Assembly (NCBI GenBank): GCA_964016885.1
Contig: OZ024743.1
Span: 97,030,001 to 97,094,000, forward strand
Length of the DNA stretch: 64,000 nt
Direction: 5' to 3'
Source: Eledone cirrhosa
Lineage: Eukaryota
The stretch's first letter is position 1. Every line of letters begins with the position of its first letter. This document shows positions 4,958-58,175 of this stretch, piece after piece. Below the pieces are notes generated by a model that saw only the letters and a program-made list of their open reading frames with translations, did no database searches and was not told where the DNA came from. The position numbers and the translations under genes are program-made.

Positions 4958-5222
4958 AGAAAGTGAAATTTTTTTACAAAATGAAAAAAAAACTGAGGTG
5001 TCCTACATAAGTGAAAGTATAAGGAAAAAAGATGAAATCGAAAATGCAACTGGAGTCTTTTTTTTTTTAAATATATATTTATTTGGTTCCTTTACTGGTT
5101 TCACAGTTCTGCTTTTCAAAAGTAGAATTGAGATGGAGGGTTTGTGGTTTTTATCACAGATGTGAGAAAAACCACAAACCCTCCATCTCAACTCTACTTT
5201 TGAAAAGCAGAAGAACTGCGAA
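4958..5222 (-). mobile_element. PLE-derived fold-back insertion in (TA)n
   Basis: About 45-bp inverted repeat (5109-5152 vs 5167-5210), flanked by TA tracts, containing an HHR motif. Confidence 0.65.
5088..5124 (-). ncRNA. minimal hammerhead ribozyme motif, U3-A8 core variant
   Basis: Minus strand reads actt TTGAAAA GCAG-AA-CTGT GAAA CCAG TA aagg. The inverted arm has TTGAAAA GCAG-AAGAA-CTGC GAA. Confidence 0.5.
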
Positions 5223-5884
5223 TATATATATATATTTATATAAAGGCTTACATATACAATGTCCATATAGACAGTAAGCTATATATAAATAACATACATA
5301 AAATCTTCCTGTGATTAAAACATGCCTTTGATAGAGTACCACCATCTATTATCTAGTGGCCCATAAGGAAAACTGGGTGTAGATGAATGGTGTGTGAACA
5401 CAGAGCAAAACACGTAGAGAGGACCTGCCAGTAAAATGAGTTTAGTGAGGAATTCAATTTTGAGGTAGGTGTTCATCAGTGCTCAGCCCACTTCTATTTA
5501 TTATTATTCTCCAGGCAATAATGGAGGAGCTTAAGACCAGCTGTCCATGGAACTTCTGTAAGTTGACAATCTGGATTTTATAGCTGAATCTCTGGAAGGC
5601 CTAGAGAGGGACGTCCCAATTGTGGAAACAGAACTTATAATCAAATAGGCTTAGAATAAACATAAAAAAACAAATTATATCTCTCACAAGACCACAACTT
5701 CTGGTGCTATGCAGTATTACAGAAGACCCACCCTCTATTATTCTCTAGCTGAGGCTTATACCTAGTAGGCAACACCTTCCTCAACCTTCTCCCCTCTCAT
5801 TCACCTCGCTTTGCAGTAACCATCTCTCCCATATTATCTATGTCTGCAATTTTGCCACGTTTCCTACCCCCATCCTTAGTCCCA

Positions 5885-6510
5885 AGACAAAAGTGCCCAG
5901 TCCCCACTGTAAAGTGGTTGTGTAGTTTTCACGACAAAAAGTGCCCACTCCACACTGTAAAGCAGTTGTGTAGGTGACACAACAAAATGCACCCAGCACA
6001 CACTCTAAATGTGGTTGGCAGTAGAAAGGGCACCCAGCTATAGAAGCCAAGCCAAAATCTGCCCTGGGTGAGCTAAACATGGTACTCTGAAACGTTTTCC
6101 TCCCTAAGGGTCAATCCGTCCTACTCATGAAGTTGGACATTAAACGATAAAGATGATGATATATAGATGTGTATATGTATGATGTGTGTGTGTATATATA
6201 TATATATATGTATATCATTGTCATGATATATACACATGTATATATATATATATATATATATATATATATATATATATATATATTATGCTGGTACCACAAA
6301 ACATCCAGCCCACACTGTAAAGTGGTCATGTAGGTGACATGACAAAAAGCACCCAGCACACACTGTAAATGTGGATGGCGCTAGGAAGGGCAGCCAGCCA
6401 TAGAAAACCAGCCAGAAACACTCCTATATGAGTGATCCAACTTGCCTCTAAATGGGAAAAACCCGTCTAACCCATGCTACCATGGAAGATAGACGTTAAT
6501 CAATGTGTGT
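5885..6510 (+). mobile_element. SINE/RTE-tail-like repeats with about 55-bp subrepeats (cacactgtaaagtggt...aggaagggca...), two copies split by (TA)n
   Basis: The motif recurs at 47510-48120, 48900-49195 and 53640-53810, ending in ggacgtta(a)a...gatgatgat. Confidence 0.6.
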
Positions 6511-6606
6511 GTGTGTGTGTACATGTATATATATATATATATCATCATCATCATCGTTTAACGTCTATCTTCCATGCTAGCATGGGTTTATATATATATA
6601 TATATG

Positions 6607-6875
6607 TAGGAGGTGAGTTTTATTGTAGCACAATAAAGCAATGCAAATATCGGATAAGTAGCACTCCACAGTTTATAGGACTGAAGTATAAATAATATAA
6701 AATCAAAAGATGGTTAAAGGAGTTCCATGTATTTTATTATGTGCATTTCAAAAACAAATATCATCATGGGATGATATCTGATGAGAACGCAAATATCATC
6801 CCATGATGATATTTGTTTTTGAAATGCGCATAATAAAATACATGGAACTCCTTTAACCATCTTTTGATTTTATAT
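6607..6875 (-). mobile_element. PLE-like fold-back insertion in (TA)n
   Basis: About 80-bp near-perfect inverted repeat (6697-6778 vs 6794-6875) with GAAA-TGCGCA-TA-ATAAA in the arms. A fragment of the same family is at 46024-46085. Confidence 0.6.
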
Positions 6876-7129
6876 ATATATATATATATATATGGAAGAA
6901 CGGACGTAAAACGTTGATGATGATGATGATGATATATATATATATATATATATAGAGAGAGAGAGAGAGAGAAACAAAGATAGACAGACAGCTATAGTAA
7001 GTCATTAGAACATTGGATTAAAATGTGCCATGGTGTTTGATTTGTTCCAGCTCTTTGTGCTTTGAGTTCAAACTGCAGTAAAGTCAACTTTGCCTTTCAT
7101 CCTTACAGGGTCAATATCTATCTAGGGCG

Positions 7130-7335
7130 GCTAAAATTCCCGAGATCCATGGACGAGTTCTCTCCAACGGTCTCTGTCCCTCATTATCGCTGCCATGTCC
7201 TGCCCTCCAACAGACCAGTGTCTGTCCTTAGGGCATCAACATAAGTTAACCTTGGTCTTTCTCTTCCAGTGTGTCCATGTAGGGGCTCCCACAGGAGCAC
7301 TGAGTGCAATGTCAACTCTGGATGCCCCTGTGTCA
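7130..7335 (-). mobile_element. RTE-clade LINE 3' fragment
   Basis: Peptide GHPELTLHSVLLWEPLHGHTGRERPRLTYVDALRTDTG matches the RTE C-terminal pattern LLWEPxHG...RPxxTYxDxL. It sits within a degenerate SINE. Confidence 0.7.
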
Positions 7336-54826: not shown

Positions 54827-54922
54827 CTACAAATTCGGAGAATATTTCCAGTTTATGTAGAAGCCTAATATACATTCATGTAAGAATATATTTAGGTGGG
54901 CGATTATATATATATATATATA

Positions 54923-55118
54923 TAACAACAGAGGAATTGTGTTACGGAACCAGATGGACCATAACACACCAGAGTACTCAATACTTAGGGTAGTAGAGTG
55001 GGAAATAGGAAAAAGTATGACCCCGACGGCAGAGCTCAAGCCGTCGAAACGGCTATTTCTGGACAGAAATAGCCGTCGAAACGGCTTGAGCTCTGCCGTC
55101 GGGGTCATACTTTTTCCT
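54923..55118 (-). mobile_element. fold-back element, second copy of the 16272-16438 family
   Basis: Colinear with 16272-16438, with a longer nested hairpin at 55006-55118. Confidence 0.65.
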
Positions 55119-55680
55119 ATATATATGTATATATATATATATATATATATTAAAATAACAGGTTTAAGCAAAGAATCGGTGCTTTCACCCTTAACTTTAA
55201 TCTGTTATTTTAATAAATATTTGCTCTAAGGTTCTTATATATTTGATATATATTTATCCTTATCGAGCCTTCTTTGGATGTTAGTCTTCACATTTATTAT
55301 TATTACTATATATATATATACATATATGCATGCACATGCACACCAACTATGCATTTTCATATAAAGAATTATCTATCAAATTAAATTGTCGAGTTAAAAA
55401 CTAGCAATATTCCGCTTCAATTAAATATCCAAGCTCTTTATAACACAGTAAACAGAGAAATACAGATATATGTTCAAATTATAAGGGATTTAAAGCCACC
55501 AGGGTGACGAAGATATTAACTACAAATAGAATGGTTTATACAAATTAATTAAAAGAATAAATCAAAGTATACAAACCAACCATATTTATGTGTATTTCTC
55601 TCTTTACTGTGTTATAAAGAATTAAATATTCACAAATACATAACCTCACTCTTATGGTCGACATTTCTCTTAAATACCAC

Positions 55681-55802
55681 CTGAAGCATACAAGATACAT
55701 GGTCGAACGTATACAGAGATATACAATAGCCAAAGACATATCTGAAGCATACAAGATACATGGTCGAACGTATACAGAGATATACAATAGCCAAAGACAT
55801 CT
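55681..55802. repeat. 61-bp tandem duplication
   Basis: ctgaagcatacaagatacatggtcgaacgtatacagagatatacaatagccaaagacat occurs twice. Confidence 0.85.
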
Positions 55803-56030
55803 GCCAATGCAGATACAAACACACATCCCAGCATATTCCTTTATCCAACCTGCAGTTAAGTTGGCAGTAGTAGCTGTTGGCAACATCAGCTTAACAACAT
55901 ATTGTTGAAACATTATACCCTCCCCCCTCCTCTACTTTCAAACTGGAATTCTCCTCCACACTCTCTTGACATTTCTCACATTCACCAAATCTATTAAACA
56001 TCCTTCTATAAGTACTGACCACGTAGAAGA

Positions 56031-56885
56031 TACCACCACCACTACCACCACCACCACCACTACCACTACCACCGATACCACCACCACCACCACCACCACT
56101 ACCTCTACCACTACCACCAATACCACCACCACCACCACTACCACCACCACCACCACCACCACTACCACAACCACCACTACCTCCACTACCACCAACACCA
56201 CTACTGCCACCACTACCACCACAACCACCACTACCACTACCACCACCATCACCACCACCACCACCACTACCACCACCACCACCATCACTACTGCCACCAC
56301 TACCACTACCACCACCACTACCACCACCACTACCACCACTACCACCACCACCACTACCACAACCACCACTACCACCATCACCACTACCAGCACCACCACT
56401 ACCACCACTACCACTACCACCACCACTACCACCATTACCACCACCACCACTACCACAGCCACCACTACCATCACCACCACTACCACCACCACCACTACTG
56501 CCACTACTACCACCACAACTACCACCACCACCACCACCAAAACCAACACCACCACCAACGCCACCACCATCACTACCACTACCACCACAACCACTACCAC
56601 CACCAAAACCAACACCAACGCCACTACCACCACTACCACCACCACCACCACCACCACCACCATCACTGCCACCACCACTACCACAACCACTACCACCATC
56701 ACCACCAAAACCAACACCACCACCAACGCCACCACCACCACTACCACTACCACCACCACCACCAAAACCAACACCACCACCACCACCAACGCCACCACCA
56801 CCACTACCATTACCACCACCACCACCAAAACCAACACCAACGCCACCACCACCACCACTACCACCACCACCACCACCACCACCAT
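56031..56885. repeat. (ACC/ACT)n trinucleotide tract
   Basis: Read directly. It produces spurious poly-Thr and poly-Val ORFs. Confidence 0.9.
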
Positions 56886-58175
56886 AATATATATATATAT
56901 ATATATATTAGAAATATAAGCTTTCACCGTATTTTTGACTAAAGAAATTTTTAGCCTGATAGTGGGGTTTAGAACCCTCAGAGAAATGGAAAAAAATTAA
57001 GTATTGACGTACATCTATTGAAAAGATAACAAGGACGAATGGTTACTCCTTCATTACATTTATTGTTAGGTGACGCGCGTTTCGCCACTGATCAGCTCAA
57101 TGTTCGATCTGTATCGATCTTACCCGACTCTATAATCCGCAGCTCGACGGACCCCTTAAAATGTTAGTAGAAAAACATCGAGTGCTCACCCGGGTGAACC
57201 TACAGTAACTCCAAGTTACACTCCCTATATATAATTCAAAATAGCACAAGGATGGACAACAGAAAAAAACATGGACCTTTTCCCCAATAAGAAAGGAGGA
57301 GAGAATGTGGTAGAGAAAAAAGGGCCTCAATATGTAAACTAAACCACTCATTCTGATTTTTTAGAAAATCAACGGACTCGGTTTATCCTGCACATTCACA
57401 TTGCATACATACATGCACGCACATACACACACACACACACACACACACAAACACACACACACACATATATATATATATATAGTACCCAATGGTAAAATAT
57501 GACTACATATGCAATGTCCTTATTTTGGGAAATTTTGAAATGGTGACTATAACTGGGACGTGTATGATGAAAGATTTGTTTAATCAAGACTGATCTTGAC
57601 AACAACCACAACATATGATTGACCCATTAACTTCTCGGTGTATAGAAATGAGTGAACAAAGAAATAAGGGTTGTGATTTATCCAAGGCAACGGAAATGAA
57701 TTATAGTAATTCCAGTTGGGAATTGAAATTGAATTGAGTAATGAGGTCACTGGGAGATTATATACTTCCAAGCTCATTTCATTGTCACGAAACGCAAATC
57801 ACCCTCAAATCACAACCCACTTTCTTAAAAAGGTATTGGACACATGGGGCAATTAAATTCCAGATATAGAAAAAAGACAGGATGGTCATACATAGAACCT
57901 CTTTGTTGATGTGTCTGCTGAACTTAGTCTGACCTGGAGCTGAACAATAATTATAACAATCGCAGTCATTGTAGCCCTATGAAATAAATGGAAAACAACC
58001 AAGTCAATTTAGCGACGTGCTTTCTAGTAGGAAATATTTTTCCTCCAACAATATTAAGATCCTTGTTCCAATCCAGTTTTTCTCTGGTATGTAAATCAGT
58101 TGTGCTTACTCAGAAGAAATCAATATATTTTAATATAAGACTTTAGTAGAAAATAATATTTATAGCTATAATAAT

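What the first reader, a model, noticed from the sequence alone, without database searches (positions are those of the whole stretch)
4958..57110. Roughly 25 minimal hammerhead motifs from many unrelated families in 64 kb
Seen: core/stem II/GAAA/stem III/NUH arrangements at about 5088, 8575, 9420, 17166, 19021, 21229, 23323, 27431, 30172, 30301, 30601, 30852, 33592, six in the 591-bp array, 41583, 43545, 43770, 45061, 45500, 45701, 46822 and a half motif at 57069. Stem III is usually self-complementary (CCGG, CACGTG, CAATTG, CTACGTAG, TGATCA, CTGATCAG, TATATA, CGCGCG), and AATAAA often follows. Established: PLE pseudo-LTRs carry such minimal HHRs. Inference: the density and family diversity suggest this genome is an unusually rich ribozyme reservoir, and any host transcript crossing the region meets many potential cleavage and poly(A) cassettes.
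Basis: partly seen in the sequence, partly recalled or inferred. Interest (0 to 1): 0.7.

Follow-up and report, generated by a model that had tools for sequence, protein, structure and literature searches.

The report
Genome saturated with retrotransposon hammerhead ribozymes
The two dozen hammerhead-ribozyme motifs are real and are likely the leftover tail ends of Penelope-type jumping genes, a known pairing; this animal genome holds at least 55,000 and likely about 250,000 of them, and one young family of 11,000 copies spread with a normally fixed core letter changed, so cutting is likely not needed for jumping.

Summary
Confirmed. All 27 listed sites are type I hammerheads or damaged copies: 20 have an intact core and stems, 2 carry a family-fixed A13C change, 5 are copy-damaged. 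My scan finds 23 in the window against 0.5 in shuffles. They fall in 10-13 partly related families and about 16 insertions. 19 of 23 end at (TA)n and 10 of 23 have AATAAA. Five families trace to Penelope-like elements (Hydra, Neptune, one unplaced). The 591- and 485-bp units are young retrozyme-like tandems. A 590-kb genome sample gives about one motif per 11 kb (roughly 170,000-390,000); exact whole-genome counts give a floor of 55,596. The window is about 3.5 times the genome mean. The class is published and this scan already noted the density on other DNA of this genome. Not met in my searches: a young Neptune family with U3-A8 plus A13C in 10,735 of 10,853 copies. Inserted copies run through the cut site, in line with published evidence that uncut RNA is copied. 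An effect on host transcripts is unsupported: no host exon found, no expression data.

The parts
5093..5119 (-). Type I hammerhead, U3-A8 core, stem III decayed from CCGG; family F1 (Neptune-linked), preceded by a fold-back arm
   Evidence: family count 10,897
6778..6832 (+).
8572..8610 (-). Hammerhead with a true hairpin stem III; stem I damaged in this copy; fold-back insertion
9420..9447 (+). Minimal hammerhead (U4C, ACGU stem III); family F4
17170..17200 (-). Hammerhead with U3-A8 and family-fixed A13C; young Neptune family F5
17863..17934 (+). Inverted scrap of the F5 Neptune endonuclease C-terminus
   Evidence: tblastn 92% identity
19025..19053 (-). Minimal hammerhead (U4C, AAUU stem III); family F6
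19473..19739 (-). GIY-YIG endonuclease remnant about 420 nt upstream of the 19053 motif, same strand
   Evidence: PF01541 E 2.5e-4, just under the curated cut-off
21233..21343 (-). Hammerhead with 91-nt stem II domain at the 3' end of a Hydra-clade PLE (family F7)
22302..23205 (-). 5'-truncated Hydra-clade ORF (thumb, CxCX5C linker, GIY-YIG-type endonuclease)
   Evidence: motifs from PMC8557442 section 11
23328..23438 (+). Inverted-arm copy of the F7 hammerhead, stem III CACGTG
27435..27484 (-). Hammerhead, stem III CCACTGG; family F8
28334..28542 (+). Inverted partner of the SGC-order element, core damaged (G8 to A)
29493..29595 (-).
   Evidence: 10,085 pattern matches, control 1
30182..30211 (-). 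Hammerhead, stem III CAATTG, stems damaged in this copy; family F9
30311..30340 (+). Inverted partner of 30211, G12U
30606..30644 (-). Hammerhead (U4C), stem III CAATTG; family F10
30856..30885 (-). A13C hammerhead of the sister subfamily F5b, at the end of a 1.1-kb 3' UTR
32008..32568 (-). 5'-truncated Neptune-type endonuclease ORF (CX4CxxC linker, GIY-YIG)
   Evidence: PF01541 E 6e-5
33598..33647 (-). Hammerhead, stem III TATATA, copy-specific A6U
37789..41419 (.). Two-armed array of a 591-bp non-coding unit, one U3-A8 hammerhead per unit (four on minus, two on plus), stem III CTACGTAG
41587..41636 (+). Hammerhead, stem III TGATCA
43545..43572 (+). Minimal hammerhead (ACGU stem III); family F4
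43774..43844 (-). Hammerhead, stem III CTGATCAG; family with a 485-bp tandem unit elsewhere
45066..45111 (+). Hammerhead, stem III CCACTGG; stem II differs from 27484 but still pairs
45505..45554 (-). Hammerhead, stem III TATATA; long arm of a fold-back insertion (family F15)
45707..45756 (+). Hammerhead, stem III TATATA; short arm of the same insertion
46828..46883 (-). Hammerhead, stem III CCTCTGG
57072..57150 (-). Whole but core-damaged hammerhead (U4C, A6U), stem III CGCGCG

Best explanation
The motifs are type I hammerheads with a short self-complementary stem III that sit at the 3' ends of Penelope-like retrotransposons (five families traced) and likely of their non-coding passengers, and they are dense because every insertion, however truncated, likely starts copying just downstream of the motif. 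Shown: structure, enrichment, sense-strand position 0.4-1.4 kb behind PLE endonuclease ORFs, ends in (TA)n, two fixed 3' ends per family, frequent inverted second arm. Inferred from published PLE biochemistry: the GIY-YIG endonuclease nicks (TA)n, the reverse transcriptase starts at two fixed internal sites 40-245 nt past the cut site and copies uncut RNA, and the motif would cut only when two copies pair through stem III, probably helped by the element's protein. The count is therefore a record of insertion number; most single copies are likely inert, and the A13C family suggests that efficient cutting is dispensable for spread.
For: 23 motifs against 0.5 in shuffles. Blind tests on the window plus sampled loci: with no stem III requirement, 44 of 55 hits have a palindromic or one-off stem III (9 of the other 11 share one sequence that I attribute to a minisatellite in L045); with only core and palindrome required, 56 of 135 have stems I and II, against 4 of 189 in ten shuffles. 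Sense PLE coding sequence within 2 kb upstream: F5 18 of 61 hits, F7 12 of 25, F2 3 of 19, F6 1 of 5; for F1 three loci show a 40-58% identical Neptune ORF (loci overlap and several were chosen as long copies). (TA)4 within 260 nt of the cut: 19 of 23 in the window and 52 of 58 in the sample, against 31% and 22% of random positions. 3' ends cluster at two positions per family and 5' ends cluster 64-152 nt upstream of the cut; 3 of 155 alignments start within 10 nt of the cut, 2 of 65 in the four families whose loci were not fetched with a core-spanning query. Two-strand folding favours the stem III dimer by 4.7-13.7 kcal/mol in 6 of 6 motifs. PMC11167929 (passages): two RT start sites give the tail, catalytic mutants insert normally, uncut RNA is the main substrate. 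A13C in 10,735 of 10,853 matches, top 40 copies 99-100% identical.
Against: No autonomous partner was traced for the families at 8610, 9420/43545, 27484/45066/46883, 30211, 30644, 33647, 41587, 45554 and 57150 or for the two tandem units; my protein queries covered only three PLE types. Cleavage, dimer formation and protein help are untested here. Conservation of the core across dozens of families argues that cutting matters to most of them, which sits uneasily with 'dispensable'. Dimer energies are expected for any palindrome and prove little. The density estimate rests on 59 fixed 10-kb stretches and my own descriptor.
Confidence: 0.85

Rival explanations
1. The hammerheads are obligatory: dimers cut tandem transcripts into unit RNAs that are ligated to circles, and circles are the template for all families, which would also carry copies through the cut site; A13C is then a tolerated or tuned-down active variant.
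For: 591- and 485-bp units occur as dispersed, 99-100% identical tandem arrays with one motif per unit, as in retrozymes shown to give circRNA (PMC7229834, passages). Between F1 and F5, stems I and II keep pairing through changes on both sides (read), so the fold is kept in spite of A13C.
Against: Autonomous families have 5' ends piled up 64-152 nt upstream of the cut rather than circularly permuted starts. The F5 monomer's lowest-energy fold hides the core (weak, -3.6 kcal/mol). Catalytic mutants of a lizard PLE insert normally in vitro. This reading is likely true for the tandem units and less so for coding elements.
Confidence: 0.3
2. The host has co-opted the motifs as intronic cleavage and polyadenylation cassettes that shape transcripts crossing the region.
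For: AATAAA follows 10 of 23 motifs; at one motif per 11 kb most long introns will hold some.
Against: No host domain in 85 plus 13 ORFs scanned, only transposon domains or sub-threshold hits (short exons would be missed); both strands used; the motifs belong to young multi-copy families; single motifs of this class did not cleave in vitro.
Confidence: 0.07
3. The motifs are chance matches in AT-rich, palindrome-rich DNA.
For: Minisatellites in L036 and L045 gave false hits; with one free core mismatch shuffles give 7-8 low-scoring hits.
Against: 19 against at most 2 in 220 shuffles; 33,485 against 12 for a reversed pattern genome-wide; position at PLE 3' ends.
Confidence: 0.01

Closest known systems
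Minimal and short-helix-III type I hammerheads of metazoan Penelope-like elements (Cervera and de la Pena 2014, PMC4209133; parts 1-2 of 4 read)
   Same: Type I order, short helix I, long helix II with an extra 5' base, palindromic helix III, U3-A8 variant, many families per genome, mostly solo or opposite-strand pairs from truncated PLEs.
   Different: Scale: about 250,000 estimated (floor 55,596) against about 9,000 in Xenopus tropicalis, 4,000 in coelacanth and 3,300 in Schistosoma, though with different descriptors; stem II domains of 50-110 nt; a fixed A13C core not met in the passages read.
Hydra clade of PLEs, including Hydra-1_Obim (Craig et al. 2021, PMC8557442; section 4 part 1, section 11, passages and supplement hits read)
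   Same: Family F7 has RWK, DKT, CxCX5C, C-terminal endonuclease, (TA)n target and a hammerhead.
   Different: A different family from Hydra-1_Obim by eye (other stem II and stem III); compared by motifs, no tree built.
Neptune clade of PLEs (as defined in PMC8557442)
   Same: F5 and F1 have a C-terminal GIY-YIG with a CX2-5CxxC linker and end in (TA)n.
   Different: F5 carries A13C on top of U3-A8 in 99% of matches; clade placement by motif only.
Non-LTR retrozymes (Cervera and de la Pena 2020, PMC7229834, passages; Li et al. 2026, bioRxiv 10.64898/2026.07.22.740005, part 1 of 5 and passages)
   Same: Non-coding tandem units with one type I hammerhead each, dispersed, PLE-derived.
   Different: Units of 591 and 485 bp exceed the 150-450 bp reported; arrays here are often two-armed; circular RNA not shown.
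Type-SGC hammerheads (Eckert et al. 2023, PMC10085705, passages)
   Same: The 29504 family has the blocks in S-G-C order with a covarying stem I.
   Different: Found here in an animal genome in over 10,000 copies; half of stem II appears to come from an upstream strand (read by eye, not tested).

Membership tests
PLE-associated minimal type I hammerhead | Core CUGANGA / GAAA / NUH in type I order, U4C and U3-A8 allowed | tested here: met
   20 of 27 listed sites intact with stems, 2 more with intact core
PLE-associated minimal type I hammerhead | Short palindromic helix III | tested here: met
   44 of 55 blind hits palindromic or one-off; the 8610 family has a hairpin stem III instead
PLE-associated minimal type I hammerhead | Helices I and II pair | tested here: met
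   56 of 135 core-plus-palindrome hits have both, 4 of 189 in shuffles
PLE-associated minimal type I hammerhead | Located in the pLTR / 3' end of a PLE, sense strand | tested here: met
   Met for F1, F2, F5, F6, F7; not traced for the other families
PLE-associated minimal type I hammerhead | Self-cleavage as a dimer | not testable with these tools
   Only folding energies
Canonical hammerhead core (for family F5) | A at position 13 | tested here: not met
   C in 10,735 of 10,853 matches; filed as a variant that may or may not cut
Hydra clade PLE (family F7) | RWK and DKT motifs in RT, CxCX5C linker, C-terminal endonuclease without CCHH | tested here: met
   Read from translations of L114-L118 against PMC8557442 section 11
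Hydra clade PLE (family F7) | Placement in the Hydra clade of an RT tree | not tested
   No tree built
Neptune clade PLE (F5, F1) | C-terminal GIY-YIG preceded by CX2-5CxxC | tested here: met
   F5 translations in L098-L100, L120, L121; PF01541; F1 by tblastn similarity only
Neptune clade PLE (F5, F1) | Placement in an RT tree | not tested
   No tree built
Non-LTR retrozyme (591- and 485-bp units) | Tandem non-coding units, one type I hammerhead per unit | tested here: met
   no ORF of 100 aa in the 591-bp array; ORFs of the 485-bp unit not checked
Non-LTR retrozyme (591- and 485-bp units) | Unit length 150-450 bp | tested here: not met
   591 and 485 bp; a typical range, so I call them retrozyme-like
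Non-LTR retrozyme (591- and 485-bp units) | Expressed as linear and circular unit RNA | not testable with these tools
   No RNA run available
Type-SGC hammerhead (29504 family) | Blocks in S-G-C order with stems I and III pairing | tested here: met
   Stem I changes on both sides among the first 100 of 10,085 matches, read by eye
Type-SGC hammerhead (29504 family) | Stem II geometry and cleavage | not tested
   Stem II only read by eye; no covariation count, no assay

The most novel reading that the evidence does not exclude
This genome is the densest hammerhead reservoir yet described (about one motif per 11 kb, dozens of families, both classical and strand-scrambled forms), and it holds a natural experiment: two equally abundant Neptune sister families, one with the normal GAAA core and one that fixed A13C in 11,000 young copies while keeping all three stems. 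If A13C does not cut, PLE hammerheads act mainly as a folded dimerisation or protein-binding handle and catalysis is optional; if it cuts, position 13 is not invariant in dimeric, protein-assisted hammerheads.
Probability: 0.45. Interest if true: 0.65.

Novelty: new member of a known kind. Interest (0 to 1): 0.47.

Why it matters
The role of hammerheads in Penelope-like elements is open. A genome with some 250,000 motifs in dozens of families offers a ready library of natural variants for a pooled cleavage assay, and the F1 (GAAA) versus F5 (GCAA) pair tests directly whether cutting is needed for spread. A standard Rfam scan listed no hammerhead among its 150 best of 285 matches in this window, so ribozyme counts in such genomes are probably far too low. 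Any effect on host genes remains speculation.

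Tried and rejected
Rfam scan: no hammerhead family among the 150 listed of 285 matches; the rest were not shown. Generic repeat finder: swamped by microsatellites, useful only for the 591-bp array. RNA evidence: no RNA holder listed for the 591-bp unit; no reads were laid. Host gene: Pfam on 13 and then 85 ORFs gave only transposon domains or sub-threshold hits; flanks were not searched for exons. Naiad identity of the 22.3-23.2 kb ORF: rejected, endonuclease is C-terminal with Hydra motifs. 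Alternative register for F5 using the GAAA inside loop II: rejected, it leaves no stem II and no U16.1. A6U at 33647 and 57150 as family variants: rejected, relatives have the normal core. Genomic trace of cleavage (copies starting at the cut): not found, 3 of 155. Rows dropped before the density count: 11 strict hits of a minisatellite in L036 (66 to 55); L036 left out, L036 and L045 out; one requested stretch did not exist. Lunse, Weinberg and Breaker (RNA Biol, short-stem-III variants) could not be read: only its title and citation were seen; my recollection that it reports about 150,000 variants across databases comes from no call, and it may cover mollusc sequences and core variants such as A13C. 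Searches for prior reports: 'hammerhead, Penelope, octopus', 'hammerhead ribozyme, cephalopod' (33), 'hammerhead, A13C, ribozyme' (48, none), 'octopus genome, Penelope, transposable elements, ribozyme' (74); none gave a cephalopod census beyond 235 Rfam hits in giant squid. Supplements of Cervera 2014 and Perreault 2011 (inactive variants, Fig. S7) were not looked at and may list position-13 variants.

Full report
Check of the observation. I read every listed site and wrote a type I descriptor: stem I, seven-base core, stem II up to 130 nt, GAAA, short self-complementary stem III, UH. It finds 19 motifs with canonical, U4C or U3-A8 core. Dinucleotide shuffles give means of 0.25-0.34 and at most 2 in 220 runs; the complemented window gives 0. 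Adding the ACGU minimal form and the A13C form gives 23 against 0.5. One intact motif at 6778 was missed. The 23 form 10 clusters at 60% identity and 13 at 80% and about 16 insertions, because the array holds six and two insertions carry a motif on each arm.

The structure is not a product of the descriptor. Without any demand on stem III, 44 of 55 hits in the window and sampled loci have a palindromic or one-off stem III; 9 of the remaining 11 share one sequence that I attribute to a minisatellite in L045; four shuffles gave 7 hits in all. With only core and palindrome demanded, 56 of 135 hits have stems I and II, against 4 of 189 in ten shuffles. A pattern with no stem requirement matches 33,485 times in the genome, its reversed control 12 times, and the listed matches show different stem II sequences that still pair.

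What carries them. Three motifs in the window lie behind their own endonuclease remnant on the same strand: 19053 (GIY-YIG at 19473-19739), 21343 (ORF 22302-23205) and 30885 (ORF 32008-32568). Longer copies from the genome show that family F7 has the RWK, DKT and CxCX5C marks of the Hydra clade and that F5 has a C-terminal GIY-YIG with a CX4CxxC linker as in Neptune (definitions from PMC8557442). F2 follows Hydra-type ORFs in L074 and L130, and F1 follows Neptune-type ORFs in L015, L028 and L146. The other families were not traced. The 591-bp unit and the family at 43844 (485-bp unit) occur as dispersed, nearly identical tandem arrays and resemble retrozymes, which are argued to derive from PLE pLTRs (bioRxiv 10.64898/2026.07.22.740005). 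(TA)4 follows within 260 nt in 19 of 23 window motifs and 52 of 58 sampled ones, against 31% and 22% of random positions; AATAAA follows within 80 nt in 10 of 23 and 19 of 58, against about 8%.

Scale. The genome has 3.0 Gb; the window is C4:97,030,001-97,094,000. It is likely an octopus-type genome (my inference from size, microsatellites and Hydra content, and the wording of earlier notes). In 59 stretches of 10 kb at fixed positions (33 on the four largest contigs, which hold 54% of the bases) the scan finds 60 motifs after dropping 11 minisatellite hits, with 5.7 expected from shuffles: 0.92 per 10 kb, about 275,000, range about 170,000-390,000 from the bootstrap. The 200 kb of flanks hold 26. 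The sample is representative for three patterns counted exactly: 7, 3 and 1 seen, 6.6, 2.1 and 2.1 expected. Three non-overlapping exact patterns give a floor of 55,596 (33,485 + 10,897 + 11,214). Published counts, with other descriptors: about 9,000 in X. tropicalis and 4,000 in coelacanth, over 6,000 in a coral, about 5,000 in a mussel, up to 120,000 retrozymes in axolotl. Earlier notes of this scan on other DNA of this genome gave 145,000-200,000; my figure was computed before I read them.

How it likely works. In seven families the 3' ends lie 38-245 nt past the predicted cut, mostly at two fixed positions (one only for F5, whose reference was the short arm), and 5' ends gather 64-152 nt upstream of it in F1, F5, F7 and F15; 3 of 155 alignments start within 10 nt of the cut, 2 of 65 in the four families not fetched with a core-spanning query. 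This matches a purified lizard PLE: two internal RT start sites make the tail, the hammerhead cuts only with the protein, catalytic mutants insert normally and uncut RNA is the main substrate (PMC11167929). Single minimal hammerheads did not cleave and dimers cleaved weakly (PMC4209133). Folding favours the stem III dimer in 6 of 6 motifs, as expected for palindromes. So each insertion likely keeps one or two motifs as a by-product of where copying starts. Nicking of (TA)n, dimer cleavage and protein help are inferred, not shown here.

The A13C family. Sites 17200 and 30885 read GCAA where the core has GAAA. Genome-wide, 10,735 matches have C and 118 have A, G or T; 11,214 carry the whole motif with U3-A8. 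The 40 best copies are 99-100% identical and two subfamilies about 82% alike share the change. The related family F1, 50-60% identical in protein, keeps GAAA (all of the first 100 of 10,897 matches), and stems I and II differ between F1 and F5 on both sides of a pair. Fixed core changes at A6 were noted by this scan in shark-like genomes, so fixed variants recur among PLEs.

Host effect. Pfam found only transposon domains or sub-threshold hits in the ORFs scanned, at least 60% of the window matches other loci, and motifs face both ways. The cassette idea has no support beyond the AATAAA enrichment, which is the elements' own 3' signal.

In passing. Prompted by earlier notes, I checked unassigned cores and found a family with the blocks in S-G-C order at 29504, with a damaged inverted partner at 28334-28542 and a partial copy at 30028; the pattern matches 10,085 times, control 1, and stem I changes on both sides. 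This is the kind described by Eckert et al. 2023 from metatranscriptomes and already noted several times in this genome.

Verdict. Real, far above chance, and a new, very large set of members of a known kind. The scale, and the F1/F5 pair as a test of whether cutting is needed, carry the interest; the host-regulation reading is not supported.

Noticed in passing
window 29493-29595 (-), 28334-28542 (+), 29947-30053 (-): Repeat family with hammerhead blocks in S-G-C order (cleavage strand, GAAA, CUGANGA), stem I covarying; 10,085 pattern matches genome-wide, control 1. Same kind as earlier notes of this scan on Naiad-linked rearranged hammerheads.
   Followed up: partly
window 20031-20232 (-): Repeat family with CUGANGA, a stem II that varies while pairing, and GAAA, but I found no cleavage strand that pairs with stem I; possibly another rearranged or decayed form.
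   Followed up: partly
window 8553-8657: Abundant fold-back family (21 hits in the 790-kb sample) whose hammerhead has a real 4-bp stem III with an 8-nt, partly palindromic loop, so it might cut as a monomer.
   Followed up: partly
window 40135-40187: At the junction of the two arms of the 591-bp array the plus arm starts about 7 nt past the predicted cut site, with a 26-nt duplication.
   Followed up: no
window 20828-20943 (+): 3' half of a family F4 motif, truncated just before GAAA, between microsatellites.
   Followed up: partly
window 4358-4411 (+): Weak hammerhead-like motif with 5-bp stem I, poor stem II and AATAAA; hardly any relative in the sampled loci.
   Followed up: partly
window 1-3168: Array of about 68 copies of a 47-bp unit, 95% matches.
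   Followed up: no
window 59093-63849 (-): LINE-type element with APE endonuclease (PF03372), RT (PF00078) and an upstream ORF1-like frame.
   Followed up: no
window 35251-37722 (+): Decayed LINE with endonuclease and RT remnants.
   Followed up: no
window 56032-56884: About 850 bp of (ACC)n-like repeat.
   Followed up: no
L036:7671-8240: 32-bp minisatellite that mimics a U3-A8 hammerhead descriptor; treated as false positive.
   Followed up: partly
L020, L032, L036, L037, L058: Hydra-linked family (stem III CGATCG) with stem II domains of about 100-115 nt.
   Followed up: partly
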